Assembly (NCBI GenBank): GCA_963662655.2
Contig: CAXXTU010000002.1
Span: forward strand, 2,432,001 to 2,496,000
Length of the DNA: 64,000 nt
From: Candidatus Cloacimonadales bacterium
GTDB taxonomy: Bacteria > Cloacimonadota > Cloacimonadia > Cloacimonadales > JAIOQZ01
Direction of reading: 5' to 3'
Shown: in pieces, positions 57,189 through 63,081 of the stretch
Layout: each line of letters starts with the position of its first letter
How positions within the stretch are numbered: the first letter of the stretch is position 1
Translations under genes and position numbers: made by a program
The notes under the pieces: model-generated
What the model was told of the DNA's origin: nothing
Databases searched by the model: none
The model's input: the letters and a program-made list of their open reading frames with translations, nothing else

Positions 57189-58393
57189 TATTTCTCCCCG
57201 GGAACCAGCTTCAGGAAGCGCCTTTTGCCTACCTTAAGAATCTGCTCTTTTTCAACGCTCAGGTTCAGGTCGCCGTCTTCGATCTTCTCATCGTCGAGCT
57301 TCACCGCGCCCTGCTTGAGCATGCGCCGCGCCTCTCCGTTCGTTTGGCAGAGACCCGTGTCGGTGAGAAGTTTGATAATCCAGACCGGCTCGTCTATCAC
57401 GAGTTCTTCGATATCGGCCGGAATATTTCCCTGGCTGAAAACGCTGTTGAATTCATTCTCCGCTTCCCAGGCCGCTTTTTCCCCATCATAAAGGGTAACG
57501 ATTTCCCGGGCCAGACGTTGCTTTATGAATTTTGGATTTTCGCCCGACTTGAGTTCCGATTCGATCACCTTGATCTCTTGCGGAGTTAGTCGTGTAGCAT
57601 ACTGGAAGTAGTTGAGGATGATGTTGTCGGGGATCGACATCACCTTGCCGTATTTTTCTCCCGGAGGATCGAAAACCGCGATATAGTTGCCCAGACTTTT
57701 GCCCATCTTGTTGACGCCGTCCGTTCCAAGGAGGATCGGGAACATGATGGCAACCTGCTCCGGCTTACCGAAATAGCGGAGCATGTCGCGTCCGCAGAGA
57801 AGGTTAAACTTCTGTTCGGTTGCGCCCAGTTCGATGTCGGCATCGATCGCTACAGAATCGTACGCCTGAAGGACGGGGTACATCAATTCGTGCATCGCGA
57901 GCGGAAGTCCGTTCTCGTAGCGCTTGCGGAAGGTGTCGTGGGCAAGGAACTGCGCCAGGGTGAATTTCCCGAGCAGGCTGATAACATTCGCCAGCGTCAG
58001 GTCGTCGAACCATTCCGATTGCCAGCGGATCTCCGTTTTGTCTTTGTCCAGAACCGTGTAGAGCTGATCCATGTAGGTTTCCGCATTGCGTTTGGTATCT
58101 TCTGCGGTCAAAGGCGGACGTGATTCGTCGCGCCCGGTTGGATCCCCGATGCGAGCCGTGAAGTCACCGATGATGATTACGCCGGTGTGGCCCATGTCCT
58201 GGAAATCGCGCAGCTTGCGCACGGGAACCATGTGACCGATATGCACATCCTTGCCGGTGGGATCGATGCCCAGCTTTACGCGAAGAGGGCGGCCTTCTTT
58301 CTCGGCGAGAATCAGCTTTTGCTTCAGTTCAGCCTCGGGGACGATCTCCTCCGCCCCGTTTTTTATCATTTCAATTTGTTCTTGTATCGTCAT
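57188..58393 (-). CDS. tyrS: Tyrosine--tRNA ligase
   Basis: 'KLGIDPT...HIGH', 'YPVLQAYD', KMGKS, C-terminal S4 domain. Confidence 0.96.
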   Translation of the reverse strand: MTIQEQIEMIKNGAEEIVPEAELKQKLILAEKEGRPLRVKLGIDPTGKDVHIGHMVPVRKLRDFQDMGHTGVIIIGDFTARIGDPTGRDESRPPLTAEDTKRNAETYMDQLYTVLDKDKTEIRWQSEWFDDLTLANVISLLGKFTLAQFLAHDTFRKRYENGLPLAMHELMYPVLQAYDSVAIDADIELGATEQKFNLLCGRDMLRYFGKPEQVAIMFPILLGTDGVNKMGKSLGNYIAVFDPPGEKYGKVMSIPDNIILNYFQYATRLTPQEIKVIESELKSGENPKFIKQRLAREIVTLYDGEKAAWEAENEFNSVFSQGNIPADIEELVIDEPVWIIKLLTDTGLCQTNGEARRMLKQGAVKLDDEKIEDGDLNLSVEKEQILKVGKRRFLKLVPGEK

Positions 58394-58570: not shown

Positions 58571-58990
58571 TTACTGCTGAGAATCCAGAATAATTGTGAG
58601 GATGTTCTTGCCGTTATCGTGCTTGTAGCTCATCTCGCGTGAGAACTGCTTCACGAGGTGGATGCCCAATCCCCCTACAGAGCGCTCCTCGATCGAGGCT
58701 TCGGTATCCGGTTCTTGTGCGGAGAGCGGATCAAACGGTGCAGCGTCGTCTTCCAGCCGAACAACGATATACTCATCGCCAAGCGTGACGTCCACCCCAA
58801 TCTCGTGATTGTTTGCATCGCGATAACCGTAGTTGATGATGTTGGTTATCATCTCATCGAAGATCAGGTTGATGTTGAATGCAACGCGGGGGTTGACATG
58901 GTTCTCCAGCACAAAGCCCTCGAAGGCATCCGCAAGCGGCGCAAGCTCTTCCAATCGATTGCCCAAGCGCCAGGTGAATTTCTTTTCCAT
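58571..58990 (-). CDS. RsbW-like anti-sigma factor / Ser-Thr kinase (HATPase_c)
   Basis: 'FDEMITNIINYG', 'DDAAPFDP', 'GGLGIHLV'. Confidence 0.88.
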   Translation of the reverse strand: MEKKFTWRLGNRLEELAPLADAFEGFVLENHVNPRVAFNINLIFDEMITNIINYGYRDANNHEIGVDVTLGDEYIVVRLEDDAAPFDPLSAQEPDTEASIEERSVGGLGIHLVKQFSREMSYKHDNGKNILTIILDSQQ

Positions 58991-59085
58991 CGCATCCTCG
59001 GTTAAACTCGGTTCGTTCACAGGTTGCCCAACTTGCCTGAGGATGTCAATGAAAAGGTGTTCTGTATCATAGATATAATTAAGGC

Positions 59086-61863
59086 TTATTCTCCTTCTTG
59101 TACTTTTTTCTTCATCATTTCGATCGAATTCCGGTCGAGTGTCGTATTGACATAGTCTTCAGCCTTGATACCCTGAATCTCCCATATTTTCTGGCGCATC
59201 AGCTGGGAGGTTCTGGATTCCTTTATAAAAACTTCACCAACAGAGTTAGTATAAGAATCCGACGACTCAGGAACAAACAAATCCTTGTCCCATTTTTTAT
59301 CCGTGCGATCAGTTCGACCCGTTCTTTCTCCATGGTTTAATCTCGGGACGTACGATAATGATGAGTGCGACGGCTCGTTCTCCAGACGGTCACAGTAGAA
59401 AGCATACATATCCTGCCCTTGATGAGGATTTCCATCGAGTGGCCACTTCTCTCGCCACGCATACACAATGTTATCTGCTAAAACATTCATTTGTTGTGAT
59501 ACTTCCGCACTTGCCGGGCCTGTAAATACCGCCCTTATCGCCCACTTATTCCTCAGATAATCGATAAGTGCCGGCAAGAAAAAACGATCCTGAGCAAAAA
59601 ACGGAAATCTTTCTGAAATCTGCTGAAGATCCCAGAAGACGATCCTCTGAATATGTTTCCCTGTTCTTACGCCATTAATTAATCGATTATCTAACAGGAA
59701 AATGAACTCCTCGGGAGAGATGCAGCCTGGACGAAGCAGCAGAGAATGAACCTTTCCATAGCAGTTTTTTTGATTGTTACACTTCTCCATCTCACTTTTA
59801 TCCTTGTAACATACCCAACCACACAAGCTTGCCCGTTCCTTGTATAGTTCCGGTTTCATGTCCTGAAGACAGATCAGTAATCCATGTTCGCCTTTGATTG
59901 ATCCGTCTCTTAGAAAATCAAGCGAGGCTTGAAGCTTGAATGTATGGTGCGCTCCTAAAACTGCTGTTGTACTCCCGCGATGCGGCTCTCCGCCTAATAT
60001 TTTTTTCAAGAAAGAATAACTTTCCGGGTTCTTCCTCAATTGATTTGTCAGTAAATGATCAATACCCCTTGGATCGTTATAGTTTCTGCAATAGAAACAG
60101 TGTGGGTTATGAAAACTCCAGAAAAGTCCACAGTTGTTCTTATCATTTTTTTGATCATTATTCGGCTCATCTTCTTGTTCATCTGTAAATAGAGTCAAAT
60201 CAGTATAGTCCTGCAAAATACTCTCTTCGGAGTATTCAATATAGTCATCCAACTTGTCCAGCCTGTGAGTCCGATAATGTAATGAAGGGAACACCTGAAT
60301 GCCAGATTCACGAATCTTGTACTGATGCCATCCAAGAACACTCTGTTGAAAACGCGACTTCTCAATGCAAATACGATTTAAGTAGTAATTCTGCTGTTTT
60401 TTATGTTCTTTACCTTCTATCTGGATAACCATATCGGCCAGATAATCCAAGTTTTCGTGATGGTTCGTCTCATCTTCATAGATAATGATGGATATCCAGG
60501 CTCGTCTCCTTAAATAACGTACGATAAGCTGTGCATCGATATTGCGTCGAATATCAGCCGGGAAAGTATTCAAACCGTCAATTAGAATGGCTCGTTTTCG
60601 GAGAGGCACTTGCTTTGAAGCCTGGTTCTTATTCTCTGGTTCCTGCTCTTTTGTTTGAACTTGAGCTTGAGTTCCATCCTCTGGGCCATCTCCAAGCCAA
60701 TACATCATATCTGAAAGCCATGTGTCATAAGAGCAACTTTCTGACTGGGAATTTTCCGTCTCAAGCGTTTCGATTTCTTTCAGCATGCTTCGAATATCGG
60801 TATCGAATCTCTTTTCTATATACTCTTCGATCTTTCGATCAATGAAATCTTTTATATTTTTTGCTTCTGAATCATCCTGTTTACATAGCATCTCACAAAT
60901 GTAATCAATAATCTTGAAAGCCCAAGGATCAATGGACCTAATATCTGTCATGAGATGATTCTTAACTTTCTCTGCTATTTTGGGGTATTCTCTCTTAGTA
61001 TTATTTTGCATATCATCAAACATGCAATCAAGGAAACTACAAAAAACATCCCTTCTTGAGACAATAATCTCACTAAGCTCGTTCTTTATCTCAAAAATCC
61101 TACTTGGTTTCCTCTTCCTCCTGCTATTCATACTCCTGCTGAAATATCCAACAATCTTTCGCTTTTGACTCGTAAAAGAGCTTTCCACCTTTTCAACTTT
61201 CCAATGATTAATATAGAAATCTACAATATCCGCACGTTTTGATGAGTCATATTCATATATAAACACTCCCAGCCAATAACATACAAACGTGAAGTACCAC
61301 TCTCGTAAATCATCACGACGATGTAGCCTTTTCATCAAATCAATAAACTCTTCTCTCTTTTGCTCGCAAGTGTAAACCCTTAGTTCCTTTGACTCGTTAA
61401 GAATATCGACAGTGTTCTGGATTTGATTTAAGAACGATGTGTCAGGATTGTATTTCTTTTGACATCTGAGAGGTTTATCACTTTCATGCAGGGCATCACT
61501 CTTGTTGCATTCAAGAATCCCCATCAGCATTTGCGTGGCGAACGTAGTCTTTCCCGTTCCAGGCTTACCTTTTATCAGAATAACCAGAGAGTCTGTATCA
61601 TACTTACTTTCTTTTACCACAGCTTCCGAATTATTGCCACCTTGAGGTTCTTGATTATCCCTGTTATCCCTAGTGTATTCCCGCTTCAAGAAGAACGGCA
61701 ACAACAAACCTCCGCGTAGAAGCTCATCGAATCCCATGATATTGGTCGGGATATATGGGCTTCTCTTCAATCGGCTAATCCTACTGATCCCCCGATAGTA
61801 GTTTCTCATTCTCCTGTAAATATCTTCAGCGTCAATAGTAGTATTCCCAACTTTATTTGCCAT
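59086..61863 (-). CDS. Large tandem KaiC/RecA-like ATPase (intact first domain with ~250-aa insertion, degenerate second domain)
   Basis: 'IPTNIMGFDELLRGGL', GKPGTGKT, 'YTCEQ', 'ILIDG', 'LDYLADMVI', 'IEKSRF', 'GIQVFP'; second domain 'ILGGEPHRGSTTAVLGAHHTFK'. Confidence 0.8.
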   Translation of the reverse strand: MANKVGNTTIDAEDIYRRMRNYYRGISRISRLKRSPYIPTNIMGFDELLRGGLLLPFFLKREYTRDNRDNQEPQGGNNSEAVVKESKYDTDSLVILIKGKPGTGKTTFATQMLMGILECNKSDALHESDKPLRCQKKYNPDTSFLNQIQNTVDILNESKELRVYTCEQKREEFIDLMKRLHRRDDLREWYFTFVCYWLGVFIYEYDSSKRADIVDFYINHWKVEKVESSFTSQKRKIVGYFSRSMNSRRKRKPSRIFEIKNELSEIIVSRRDVFCSFLDCMFDDMQNNTKREYPKIAEKVKNHLMTDIRSIDPWAFKIIDYICEMLCKQDDSEAKNIKDFIDRKIEEYIEKRFDTDIRSMLKEIETLETENSQSESCSYDTWLSDMMYWLGDGPEDGTQAQVQTKEQEPENKNQASKQVPLRKRAILIDGLNTFPADIRRNIDAQLIVRYLRRRAWISIIIYEDETNHHENLDYLADMVIQIEGKEHKKQQNYYLNRICIEKSRFQQSVLGWHQYKIRESGIQVFPSLHYRTHRLDKLDDYIEYSEESILQDYTDLTLFTDEQEDEPNNDQKNDKNNCGLFWSFHNPHCFYCRNYNDPRGIDHLLTNQLRKNPESYSFLKKILGGEPHRGSTTAVLGAHHTFKLQASLDFLRDGSIKGEHGLLICLQDMKPELYKERASLCGWVCYKDKSEMEKCNNQKNCYGKVHSLLLRPGCISPEEFIFLLDNRLINGVRTGKHIQRIVFWDLQQISERFPFFAQDRFFLPALIDYLRNKWAIRAVFTGPASAEVSQQMNVLADNIVYAWREKWPLDGNPHQGQDMYAFYCDRLENEPSHSSLSYVPRLNHGERTGRTDRTDKKWDKDLFVPESSDSYTNSVGEVFIKESRTSQLMRQKIWEIQGIKAEDYVNTTLDRNSIEMMKKKVQEGE

Positions 61864-62917
61864 TTTTGCCTCCCCCGTCAAGTATCTCTGCCAAGTTTTC
61901 TAGCAATTCTTTAATATCTTTGAAAGTATTCTCCGTGATGAGATTAATGCCCACACTGCGGAAGTGCTGGCCTAAAATTTCCTTGCAAGCAGTCTTGTTA
62001 TCCTCTGTAACAGGCTTGCGATCATATACCATTATATAATCTTCAGATAGATGCTTTCGATTGTATTGAACGATATCATTTTCCAAAGCCATAATTTGAT
62101 AAATATCAGGATTGTCACAGTACTCCTTGTTGGTTGAGAGGAGCCGGAGCATGTTGATATCAGTAAGTGAGGCCCCCAAAAAGATGCAGATACTTTGCTG
62201 CAAATGATAAAGCTGCGTTGAGACCTGCCAGGTATGGTGTTCCCGGATAAATCGATGATATTCTTCCAGGCTGAAAACAATATCCTGATCCAGCGATGAG
62301 AGCATCGGCGACACCCAGGGAAGATAGCCGTGAACATGATAGATCGGAAGTTCACCATACGCAAGGGACTCCCTCTCTTCTCGATAGATCGTACGGTACC
62401 TTCTTCCGCTTCTCCTGCTACCCCGTTTTTTACAGTAACCGCGGAGGCACTGTTCGAGAAGATCGTCCCAATTGTACGTGATAACGGCTCCAACTCGATT
62501 ACTCTGGCATAGCTCGGATAAAGGCTTAACGTAGCATTCACCATCATCGAGCATCGAAGGTGTATAGCTTGAATATAGTCCATCATGCACAAGCGCGCTA
62601 TAACGGCTCTTCAGGGCTGTACTGATTATGTTTGCCTTATCATATACCGTTAGTCGATCATCCATCCATGCAACAATCTCATCAAGATTGCCAAACGAAC
62701 AGCCCTTACTGCCCAAGTAGGTTACAAGCGCTTTCTTGAGAAGCTTACCAAGCATCTCGCTCCAGCGCGGTAAACCGCTCGGATTAATCCCGGCGCCAAG
62801 AAAGAGGGTGATCGGTTTTTTTATAGTCCGAATCCGAGTTAAAAAATCTTCTGAATTGATTTCTCTACCTGAAAATCCCTTATCGCAATACTCGTCAAAA
62901 TCCTTTGTTACTCTCAT
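61853..62917 (-). CDS. SIR2-like (SIR2_2-type) NAD+-processing protein
   Basis: 'LFLGAGI...LPRW', 'ITYNWDDLLE', 'IYHVHG', 'FLGASLTDIN'. Confidence 0.88.
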   Translation of the reverse strand: MRVTKDFDEYCDKGFSGREINSEDFLTRIRTIKKPITLFLGAGINPSGLPRWSEMLGKLLKKALVTYLGSKGCSFGNLDEIVAWMDDRLTVYDKANIISTALKSRYSALVHDGLYSSYTPSMLDDGECYVKPLSELCQSNRVGAVITYNWDDLLEQCLRGYCKKRGSRRSGRRYRTIYREERESLAYGELPIYHVHGYLPWVSPMLSSLDQDIVFSLEEYHRFIREHHTWQVSTQLYHLQQSICIFLGASLTDINMLRLLSTNKEYCDNPDIYQIMALENDIVQYNRKHLSEDYIMVYDRKPVTEDNKTACKEILGQHFRSVGINLITENTFKDIKELLENLAEILDGGGKNGK

Positions 62918-63024
62918 TGTGTTCCTGAAGTGAATAAATTTGCAAAGCAGAGTTAATATTCGAGAATTCGGAAAATTTATGTCAAGATTATAATTTACGG
63001 ATCAATTATTTTCCACTTTTCAAC

Positions 63025-63050
63025 AAAAAAAAAGCGCTCCGTCGGAGCGC
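63025..63050 (-). terminator. Rho-independent terminator after the aminotransferase gene
   Basis: GCGCTCC-GAC-GGAGCGC followed by T9 on the minus strand. Confidence 0.8.
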
Positions 63051-63081
63051 CTTCTCAATAATTCCACAATGAATTAATCGA

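What the first reader, a model, noticed from the sequence alone, without database searches (positions are those of the whole stretch)
59086..62917. Candidate anti-phage system: SIR2-like NADase translationally coupled to a tandem KaiC-like ATPase
Seen: two overlapping genes (ATPase ATG at 61863 behind a GGGGGAGG RBS; SIR2 stop at 61853-61855) sit between the aminotransferase terminator and an rsbW-like gene that has its own TTGACA box (59044-59049). The DNA is AT-rich (21/60 GC at 60901-60960 vs 39/60 at 57901-57960 in tyrS). Known: SIR2 domains with GAG / TxNxD / HG motifs are NAD+-depleting effectors in Thoeris, DSR, Sir2-HerA and SPARSA. The partner here is neither HerA nor a STAND NTPase; it carries KaiC/RecA signatures. 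Inference: a KaiC-like ring senses infection or gates the NADase. I do not recall this pairing as a named system.
Basis: partly seen in the sequence, partly recalled or inferred. Interest (0 to 1): 0.82.

Follow-up and report, generated by a model that had tools for sequence, protein, structure and literature searches.

The report
Clock-protein-like ATPase paired with NAD-destroying enzyme
Two overlapping genes, one predicted to destroy the cofactor NAD+ and one whose family is predicted to fold like the circadian clock protein KaiC, occur together as a co-evolving pair in many unrelated bacteria and likely form an undescribed anti-phage defence system, with a second form in common human gut bacteria.

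Summary
Observation confirmed. An AT-rich insertion holds a SIR2_2 gene (354 aa, NADase motifs intact) overlapping a 925-aa ATPase gene.

The ATPase has a tandem KaiC fold, not HerA or STAND. A compact homologue's model (pLDDT 90) matches full-length KaiC at Z 23.

The pairing is real. The SIR2 gene lies directly upstream in 16 of 20 metagenome loci found through the ATPase alone; the other four are cut off or rearranged. It is also upstream in 2 related genomes and 1 Bacteroidales-like locus. The partner SIR2s form one clade, and the two trees are near-congruent.

There are two types. Type I, seen here, has an intact first ATPase ring, a degenerate second ring with a conserved cysteine insert, and a hypervariable insertion. 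Type II lacks the hydrolysis residues in both rings and occurs in gut Bacteroidales.

A congeneric genome has a restriction-modification system at the same site.

Defence is likely but untested. Gating of the NADase by a nucleotide-sensing ring is inferred by analogy with Sir2-HerA.

The parts
61853..62917 (-). SIR2_2 (SIRim-type) predicted NADase gene, 354 aa, with no appended sensor domain
   Evidence: Pfam PF13289 E 4.6e-12; model pLDDT 77.5, best fold match ThsA Z 24.4, rmsd 3.2, 274 aligned
62789..62797 (-). GAG motif (residues 41-43), NAD-binding loop
   Evidence: G41 and G43 in 43 of 43 clade members
62465..62479 (-). TYNWD motif with putative catalytic Asn149
   Evidence: N149 and D151 in 43 of 43
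62327..62338 (-). HVHG motif with putative catalytic His196
   Evidence: H194, H196 and G197 in 43 of 43
59086..61863 (-). Tandem KaiC-fold ATPase gene, 925 aa (type I)
   Evidence: PF06745 E 2.1e-12; model of homologue P0276 matches full-length KaiC, Z 23.4, rmsd 3.7, 415 aligned
61869..61876 (-). Shine-Dalgarno GGGGGAGG inside the SIR2 3' end; 11-nt gene overlap, consistent with translational coupling
   Evidence: sequence; short gaps or overlaps (-17 to +30 nt) at 16 other loci
61546..61569 (-). Ring 1 Walker A, GKPGTGKT (residues 99-106), intact
   Evidence: K105 in 83 of 85 type I sequences
60592..61362 (-). Hypervariable insertion in ring 1 between catalytic Glu167 and Walker B Asp429; candidate sensor
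   Evidence: E-to-Walker-B span 60-482 aa in type I, 262 here; this insert matches only itself among 135 family members; no Pfam family over cut-off
60352..60360 (-). K-S-R arginine-finger motif of ring 1 (residues 502-504; role assigned from recalled RecA/KaiC motifs), followed by the family signature FQ...GWHQYK
   Evidence: K502 and R504 each in 84 of 85 type I sequences
59932..59955 (-). Ring 2 degenerate Walker A, GAHHTFKL (family consensus GPRxTFKT)
   Evidence: K643 in 85 of 85 type I and 50 of 50 type II; aligns with the RecA P-loop
59761..59823 (-). Cysteine-rich insert in ring 2 (C681, C685, C695, C701); predicted zinc site
   Evidence: C681 in 82/85 and 48/50; C701 in 83/85 and 49/50; 3 or more Cys in 81 of 85 type I
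62987..63015 (-). Promoter-like site (TGGAAA-17-TATAAT) upstream of the SIR2 gene; consensus match only
   Evidence: 10 of 12 matches; 13 sites found in the region against 10.4 +/- 3.5 in shuffles
63028..63056 (-). Intrinsic terminator of the upstream aminotransferase, isolating the pair

Best explanation
The two genes are a conserved, co-evolving pair that likely forms an abortive-infection defence system, in which a predicted KaiC-like double ring would hold the predicted SIR2 NADase in check and release it on infection.

Shown: the gene pair and its order, its co-inheritance, the tandem KaiC fold of the family (model of a homologue), intact SIR2 catalytic motifs, an intact ring 1 and degenerate ring 2 in type I, and loss of the hydrolysis residues in type II.

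Inferred:
(1) The ATPase forms a hexameric double ring, as KaiC does.
(2) It binds the SIR2 directly, as HerA binds Sir2.
(3) Nucleotide occupancy, rather than motor activity, sets the state. Both Walker A lysines and Walker B aspartates survive in type II while the catalytic Glu and Arg finger do not.
(4) A fall in ATP and/or a phage protein binding the hypervariable ring-1 insert switches on the NADase, depleting NAD+ and arresting the infected cell.

I put defence at about 0.75, and direct nucleotide gating given defence at about 0.65.
For: Co-occurrence: SIR2 lies directly upstream on the same strand in 16 of 20 metagenome loci retrieved with ATPase motifs only. It does so too in 2 of 2 related genomes carrying the ATPase and in 1 of 1 type II locus.

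Co-evolution: the paired SIR2s form one clade, support 1.0 (33 of 136 tips). The SIR2 and ATPase trees for 23 pairs are near-congruent, Mantel rho 0.69 against a maximum of 0.32 in 2000 permutations. Two related SIR2s outside the clade have no such ATPase in their 80% and 89% complete genomes.

SIR2 type: its closest folds are the defence NADases ThsA, KomC and DSR2 (Z 20-24), above a Plasmodium sirtuin (Z 15). It has no CxxC motif in 21 of 23. SIRims lack the zinc tetrad and are enriched 12-fold near defence systems (10.1101/2024.09.18.613514, passages).

Mobility: the ATPase is in 3 of 232 phylum genomes and 0 of 7 others in the family. The pair is lower in GC than its flanks in 13 of 16 loci.

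Context: the same site in congeneric G002 holds a HaeIII-like restriction enzyme and a D12 methylase. Other loci have an adjacent MmeI RM gene (L043), a DrmMI-like gene (L047), FRG-NACHT (L044, L047, L051), or a TPR-S plus cyclase gene (L006).

Insert: 44 long type I inserts fall into 35 clusters.

Precedent: in Sir2-HerA the Sir2 is inactive alone, activated by HerA binding and repressed by ATP (PMC11514289 section 6). That HerA has no ATPase activity (passages).
Against: No phage, NAD+ or binding data exist.

Many loci have no recognisable defence neighbour (window, L007, L033, L034, L037, L041, L032). I computed no baseline for enrichment, and L044, L047 and L051 look related, so they are not independent.

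The type II insert is conserved (48 of 50 in one cluster), which does not fit an arms-race sensor in that type.

The window's own 925-aa protein was not folded; the model is of a 554-aa homologue.

Type II adjacency was seen directly in one locus only. Six of the 23 tree pairs rest on matching contig lengths, not on read DNA.

In L048 and L049 the ATPase C-terminal half lies without a SIR2, fused to a restriction-helicase fragment.
Confidence: 0.55

Rival explanations
1. It is a defence system, but the ATPase acts indirectly. It senses infection and nucleates SIR2 filaments, or acts through a small molecule, without a stable nucleotide-gated complex.
For: The closest folds to the SIR2 model include helical or filament structures of ThsA and KomC. 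The SIR2 has no ligand-binding domain of its own, so any signal would need the partner.
Against: No signal-making enzyme is part of the pair. Coupled translation and congruent trees fit a stoichiometric complex better.
Confidence: 0.2
2. It is a toxin-antitoxin or addiction module. The SIR2 is constitutively toxic and the KaiC-like protein neutralises it, with no role in phage defence.
For: Two coupled genes, patchy and AT-rich, often in non-defence surroundings.
Against: A 550-1290-aa double-ring protein is unusual for an antitoxin (inference). No match was found in plasmids or viral contigs. Characterised defence SIR2s are inactive without infection (PMC11514289).
Confidence: 0.1
3. It is a non-immune energy or stress switch. 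A KaiC-like ATP/ADP sensor or timer controls NAD+ turnover or ADP-ribosylation, for example for dormancy.
For: The full tandem KaiC architecture is kept. Long co-inheritance. Some loci lie beside signalling or polysaccharide genes (L032, L034, L041).
Against: No KaiB in the own genome. The distribution is sporadic even within a genus. The SIR2 is of the immune type. Ring 2 lacks the glutamate pair.
Confidence: 0.12
4. It is a divergent member of an already named system such as Sir2-HerA, Avs5, Thoeris or PDC-S25.
For: Same gene order as Sir2-HerA (recalled). Weak PADLOC hits of the SIR2 to ThsA and PDC-S25 (E 2e-6).
Against: The ATPase fold and profile match KaiC across two domains. None of the ATPases scanned against PADLOC hits a HerA or STAND model at E 1e-3, and the only hits are weak. 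The SIR2 lacks the extra domains of ThsA (478 positions) and PDC-S25 (517-528).
Confidence: 0.05

Closest known systems
Sir2-HerA (Nezha) anti-phage system
   Same: Two genes: a stand-alone SIR2 NADase plus a RecA-like P-loop ATPase. The Asn/His catalytic pair is conserved. ATP-gated activation is the model borrowed here (PMC11514289 section 6; PMC13434337 passages).
   Different: The partner is a tandem KaiC-fold protein with two P-loop domains, a cysteine insert and a hypervariable insert. HerA has a HAS domain, one ATPase domain and a helical bundle. Sir2 chains from Sir2-HerA rank low against the SIR2 model (Z 14-16 versus 24 for ThsA).
Cyanobacterial clock protein KaiC and double-domain KaiC-like ATPases
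   Same: Both domains superpose on full-length KaiC (Z 22-23, 415-445 residues aligned, 17-20% identity). Ring 1 keeps Walker A, catalytic Glu, Walker B and K-x-R.
   Different: Far below the KaiC cut-off (NF006799: 26.8 against 408 bits). Ring 2 has a degenerate P-loop and no glutamate pair. No KaiB in the genome. Paired with a SIR2 wherever the upstream DNA was intact.
Thoeris ThsA, Kongming KomC, DSR2, Avs5, SPARSA (SIR2 effectors)
   Same: Same SIR2_2/SIRim catalytic domain; these are the best fold matches.
   Different: No SLOG, STAND, APAZ or DSR sensor domain is fused. No TIR, HAM1 or Argonaute partner was seen at the loci read.
Human FAM118B (SIRanc)
   Same: Top hit of the SIR2 clade profile among solved structures, over nearly the whole length (E 7.5e-17). 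Also a stand-alone SIR2_2 protein.
   Different: By fold it ranks 38th (Z 18.6, rmsd 3.5, 271 aligned) behind ThsA, so a special kinship is not supported.

Membership tests
SIR2_2 / SIRim NADases | Pfam SIR2_2 domain over cut-off and Rossmann sirtuin fold | tested here: met
   46.7 bits against a cut-off of 24.5; Z 24.4 to ThsA
SIR2_2 / SIRim NADases | GxG, xxNxD and catalytic His conserved | tested here: met
   43 of 43 clade members
SIR2_2 / SIRim NADases | No zinc-binding cysteine tetrad of deacetylase sirtuins | tested here: met
   0 CxxC in 21 of 23 paired SIR2s and one in the other two; criterion from 10.1101/2024.09.18.613514
SIR2_2 / SIRim NADases | NAD+ hydrolysis | not testable with these tools
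   needs a biochemical assay
Sir2-HerA (Nezha) | Stand-alone SIR2 gene coupled to an ATPase gene | tested here: met
Sir2-HerA (Nezha) | Partner is HerA: HAS barrel, single RecA-like domain, helical bundle | tested here: not met
   the homologue's model has two RecA-like domains that align with KaiC from residue 1 to about 536 of 554, leaving no room for a HAS domain; the window protein begins with the KaiC-type N-terminal motif
Sir2-HerA (Nezha) | Direct complex with ATP-repressed NADase | not testable with these tools
KaiC-like (RecA superfamily) tandem ATPases | Two RecA-fold domains in tandem | tested here: met
   Foldseek E 5.7e-24 and Z 23.4 to full-length KaiC for homologue P0276; two PF06745 stretches in the window protein
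KaiC-like (RecA superfamily) tandem ATPases | Walker A, catalytic Glu, Walker B and K-x-R finger in the first domain | tested here: met
   83, 81, 85 and 84 of 85 type I sequences. In type II the Glu is lost (Asn 29, Asp 7 of 50) and the Arg is lost (Val 34 of 50)
Circadian KaiC proper | Score over the KaiC equivalog cut-off; canonical P-loop and glutamate pair in the second domain | tested here: not met
   26.8 against 408 bits; GAHHTFK and LQD in place of the canonical motifs
Circadian KaiC proper | KaiB partner in the genome | tested here: not met
   no PF07689 match in the 99% complete genome; the control found it in Synechococcus
Circadian KaiC proper | Autophosphorylation sites equivalent to S431/T432 | tested here: inconclusive
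   the sequence alignment to KaiC did not reach that region. By a recalled motif the equivalent columns are Ser 61/85 and Ala 55/85 in type I, and Asn-Val in the window protein
Avs/STAND (SIR2-STAND) | STAND NTPase with helical/TPR sensor, fused to the effector | tested here: not met
   nSTAND3 21.7 and NACHT 13.6 bits, both under cut-off and near the P-loop only; fold is tandem KaiC; separate genes
Thoeris | SIR2-SLOG effector plus TIR gene | tested here: not met
   the 354-aa SIR2 has no SLOG, and the ThsA hit covers 107-275 of 478 positions; the only partner in the window is the ATPase
Any DefenseFinder system | Match to a DefenseFinder model and rule | not testable with these tools
   only PADLOC-DB 2.0.0 (2023) was available

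The most novel reading that the evidence does not exclude
A KaiC-type double ring, best known as a clock and signalling hub, has been recruited as an immune switch. It reads the cell's adenylate state, or a phage protein through an exchangeable insert, and unleashes a SIR2 NADase. The system has split into an ATP-hydrolysing type with a hypervariable sensor and a hydrolysis-dead type that is common in human-gut Bacteroidales and that PADLOC does not detect.
Probability: 0.45. Interest if true: 0.85.

Novelty: new variant of a known kind. Interest (0 to 1): 0.74.

Why it matters
It would add a new class of ATPase partner to NAD-depleting immunity and give the KaiC fold an immune role. It offers a natural comparison of a hydrolysing and a non-hydrolysing version of the same switch, which directly tests whether ATP binding or ATP turnover gates SIR2 effectors. 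The type II form is in cultured gut species, so it can be tested at once. The ATPase is in Bacteroides uniformis (one sequence seen on 442 contigs) and Butyricimonas. The SIR2 is in B. uniformis, B. finegoldii, Parabacteroides distasonis and P. johnsonii. It may help explain phage resistance in gut Bacteroidales that PADLOC does not annotate.

Tried and rejected

The range across named genomes is therefore unmeasured.

No relatives were found in viral contigs or plasmids. The single 'phage' record MT835535.1 has glycosyltransferase genes around the pair and looks like a bacterial polysaccharide locus. The viral fold search gave only single-domain RecA/DnaB matches (TM at most 0.32).

No clean empty site exists, because the aminotransferase, tyrS and rsbW-like genes are not neighbours in the five relatives searched. 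No boundary repeats of 8 nt or more were printed.

A special link to human FAM118B was suggested by the profile search but not supported by fold ranking. HerA was not listed in the fold searches of the ATPase model.

Two apparent SIR2-ATPase fusions (P0189, P0247) carry only the first 100-140 SIR2 residues, and no canonical ring-1 Walker A was found in either. I treat them as deletions or assembly errors. A search for longer fused forms was not run.

BLAST of ring 1 against ring 2 showed no significant similarity. No RNA holder was listed. The Makarova 2017 KaiC survey is not held. Look-ups of earlier scan findings returned nothing on this pair.
Full report
1. The observation. SIR2 runs 62917-61853 (354 aa) and the ATPase 61863-59086 (925 aa). 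They overlap by 11 nt, with GGGGGAGG at 61876-61869. A terminator (63056-63028) separates them from the upstream class V aminotransferase, and a promoter-like site lies at 63015-62987. Promoter-like sites in the region are no more frequent than chance, 13 against 10.4 +/- 3.5. The block is 41.4% GC in a 51.2% genome, among the lowest 0.45% of same-sized windows, and third-position GC is 0.42-0.47 against 0.67-0.68 in three flanking genes. Each gene is single-copy in the genome. The TTGACA before the rsbW-like gene exists but was not scored as a promoter. The organism is probably Candidatus Cloacimonadota; this is inferred from source names of homologues.

2. The SIR2. It passes Pfam SIR2_2. 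Its model (pLDDT 77.5, pTM 0.81) matches ThsA (Z 24.4), KomC (23.3) and DSR2 (21.6) better than Sir2 of Sir2-HerA (14-16) or a Plasmodium sirtuin (15.2). G41, G43, N149, D151, H194, H196 and G197 are present in 43 of 43 members of its clade. An Asn/His pair is the proposed catalytic dyad in S. aureus Sir2-HerA (PMC11514289, section 6). It has no zinc tetrad and no strongly hydrophobic segment, and no fused sensor domain. This places it among the SIRims, which are 12-fold enriched near defence systems (10.1101/2024.09.18.613514, passages).

3. The ATPase. The family profile's best solved relatives are KaiC proteins (E 3.4e-14). I folded a compact homologue (P0276, 554 aa, 77-row alignment; pLDDT 89.9, pTM 0.89). 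It superposes on full-length KaiC over both domains (Foldseek E 5.7e-24; Z 23.4, rmsd 3.7, 415 aligned). It is far from clock KaiC proper (26.8 against 408 bits; no KaiB in the genome). A profile search of 1.84 billion representatives gave 319 proteins at E 1e-30 or better, of which the best 150 were listed. I aligned the 135 sequences of 540 aa or more, leaving out P0018, P0019 and shorter fragments. I split them by score rank into 85 type I and 50 type II; P0218 was placed in type I by motif, and a few rows are near-duplicates.

In type I, ring 1 is intact: K105 83/85, E167 81/85, D429 85/85, K502 and R504 84/85 each. Ring 2 has a degenerate P-loop (consensus GPRxTFKT, aligned to the RecA P-loop) that keeps its lysine (85/85) and Walker B Asp745 (85/85). 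It has Asp instead of the catalytic Glu, and no K-x-R was evident in the columns examined. The roles of these motifs are assigned from established RecA/KaiC knowledge (recalled). Ring 2 also has a cysteine insert (C681 82/85, C701 83/85).

Type II is homologous over 537 columns (probability 100). It has lost the ring-1 Glu (Asn 29, Asp 7 of 50) and Arg finger (Val 34 of 50). It keeps both lysines (42/50, 50/50), the Walker B aspartates (39/50, 48/50) and the cysteines.

Between the Glu and Walker B of ring 1, type I carries a stretch of 60-482 aa, 262 here. The window's insert matches only itself among 135 sequences, whereas a core segment matches 135 of 135. The 44 inserts of 100 aa or more fall into 35 clusters. 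Three inserts tested have no Pfam family over cut-off. Type II inserts are conserved, 48 of 50 in one cluster.

4. The pair is a unit. A metagenome scan with motifs from the ATPase's C-terminal half gave 20 loci. Sixteen have the SIR2 directly upstream on the same strand (L044 and L045 are one region). In two (L051, L052) the contig begins inside the ATPase. In two (L048, L049, apparently one rearranged locus) the C-terminal half is fused to a restriction-helicase fragment with no SIR2. The ATPase reading frame is split in L033 and L036. Both related genomes with the ATPase have the pair, as does the one type II locus I could read. Spacing is -17 to +30 nt at 16 loci.

The 23 paired SIR2s fall in one clade of 33 among 136 SIR2 sequences (FastTree support 1.0). 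The SIR2 and ATPase trees are near-congruent: Mantel rho 0.69, maximum 0.32 in 2000 permutations, with six pairs resting on contig lengths. This shows long co-inheritance; it does not prove physical contact. In the reverse direction, 5 of 232 phylum genomes have a SIR2 match at 1e-25. Three score near 1e-102 and have the ATPase. Two score near 1e-49, show no ATPase match (80% and 89% complete) and lie outside the clade.

5. Distribution and context. The ATPase is in 3 of 232 phylum genomes including this one, and was not found in the 7 other genomes of the family searched. The loci range from about 32% to 62% GC, and the pair is poorer in GC than its flanks in 13 of 16. The site after the aminotransferase is variable in the genus. 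G002 has a SAM methyltransferase and then a D12 DNA methylase with a HaeIII-like endonuclease there, while G001 and G003 have unrelated genes.

Defence or conflict neighbours occur at L043 (MmeI), L047 (DrmMI-like), L044, L047 and L051 (FRG-NACHT; probably related hosts), L048/L049 (restriction helicase) and L006 (TPR-S and cyclase). L050 has a DUF433 gene nearby. The window, L007, L033, L034, L037, L041 and L032 have none, and I ran no baseline, so island association is moderate and unquantified.

Type II ATPases are named from Bacteroides uniformis and Butyricimonas. SIR2 homologues of the type II locus are named from B. uniformis, B. finegoldii, Parabacteroides johnsonii, P. distasonis, Phocaeicola and a Lachnospiraceae MAG, and a clade member from Alistipes. 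Atlas feature search independently returned unannotated clusters of 62-273 members, commonest Bacteroidota in the largest, as the nearest look-alikes.

6. Mechanism. The best-supported reading is a defence system in which a KaiC-like double ring controls a SIR2 NADase. The SIR2 has no sensor, so regulation likely comes from the partner. In Sir2-HerA the Sir2 is inactive alone, active when bound, and repressed by ATP, and that HerA does not hydrolyse ATP. A type III variant also needs a phage protein and an ATP drop (PMC13434337, passages). The loss of catalytic but not binding residues in type II fits the same logic of nucleotide occupancy as the gate. The hypervariable insert of type I fits a phage-protein sensor. 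Ring formation, binding, the direction of control and the trigger are all inferred. Rivals are indirect activation, a toxin-antitoxin module and a non-immune energy switch.

7. Novelty. PADLOC gives no strong hit. The window SIR2 has partial ThsA and PDC-S25 hits at 2e-6 (the best among paired SIR2s was 1e-13 to ThsA, for L007). The ATPases have only weak hits, and 1 of 43 type II members hits anything at 1e-3.

Ten full-text searches of the held library found no description:
- KaiC + Sir2 + anti-phage: 0.
- KaiC + Sir2: 6, unrelated by title and abstract.
- KaiC-like + phage defense: 0.
- KaiC + sirtuin + ATPase + conflict: 4, unrelated.
- Three of KaiC / antiphage / defense system / NADase: 164, none of the 30 listed containing KaiC.
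- Sir2 + ATPase + defense + RecA: 107, 40 listed, none naming such a pair in title or abstract start.
- KaiC + defense island: 4, one read by passage.
- KaiC + phage + abortive infection: 1, a viral KaiC gene.
- Two further searches on FAM118B and on Bacteroidales loci.

Papers seen: PMC11514289 by passages and section 6. PMC13434337, 10.1101/2024.09.18.613514, PMC12700824, PMC12118408, PMC13700489 and PMC5512222 by passages. All others by listing only. Subscription papers, bioRxiv supplements, supplements of large defence screens and DefenseFinder were not checked, and could hold this pair as an unnamed candidate.

8. Verdict. This is a real, conserved, apparently undescribed two-gene module. 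It works most plausibly like Sir2-HerA but is not a member of it. It is a new variant of a known kind; interest 0.74.

Noticed in passing
L060:2300-4095 (G002), site equivalent to window 62918-63081: A congeneric genome carries a D12 adenine methylase beside a HaeIII-family endonuclease after the same aminotransferase. The site is a variable cargo position.
   Followed up: partly
L032:1-13000 (MT835535.1): A record deposited as a bacteriophage shows polysaccharide-synthesis genes rather than phage genes in the 17 kb read. The type II pair sits between glycosyltransferase genes. L041 also lies near a NusG-family / UDP-sugar dehydrogenase locus.
   Followed up: partly
L035:3624-7465: Three-gene operon on the opposite strand next to the pair: an unannotated kinase-like P-loop protein, a NUDIX-domain protein and a second P-loop protein. 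Possibly another nucleotide-based conflict module.
   Followed up: no
L044:9314-16312, L047:6422-8910, L051:876-5054: A recurring FRG-NACHT gene preceded by an unannotated gene (about 260 aa in L044 and L051). L044 has a further ORF with an HNH-type endonuclease match.
   Followed up: no
L006:10024-12002: A TPR-S / MAP3K TRAF-binding gene and an adenylate/guanylate cyclase gene lie as two ORFs directly upstream of the SIR2. They may be one split gene.
   Followed up: no
L058:179-1300 and L059:7302-8411: Stand-alone SIR2_2 genes of about 370 aa from a related clade, with an N-terminal extension and no ATPase partner found.
   Followed up: partly
L049:6053-8221 and L048:2-1639: Chimeric ORF joining the Mrr-nuclease/helicase start of a restriction enzyme to the C-terminal half of the KaiC-like ATPase, beside a transposase in L048. 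Probably a deletion remnant.
   Followed up: partly
protein P0220: A 1077-aa type II ATPase that appears to carry extra, partial KaiC-like repeats at its N-terminus.
   Followed up: no
window 58571-58990: The rsbW-like gene is only 45-50% identical to its best match in three congeneric genomes, against 79-87% for the aminotransferase and tyrS, and is not beside tyrS there. It may also be a later arrival at this site.
   Followed up: partly
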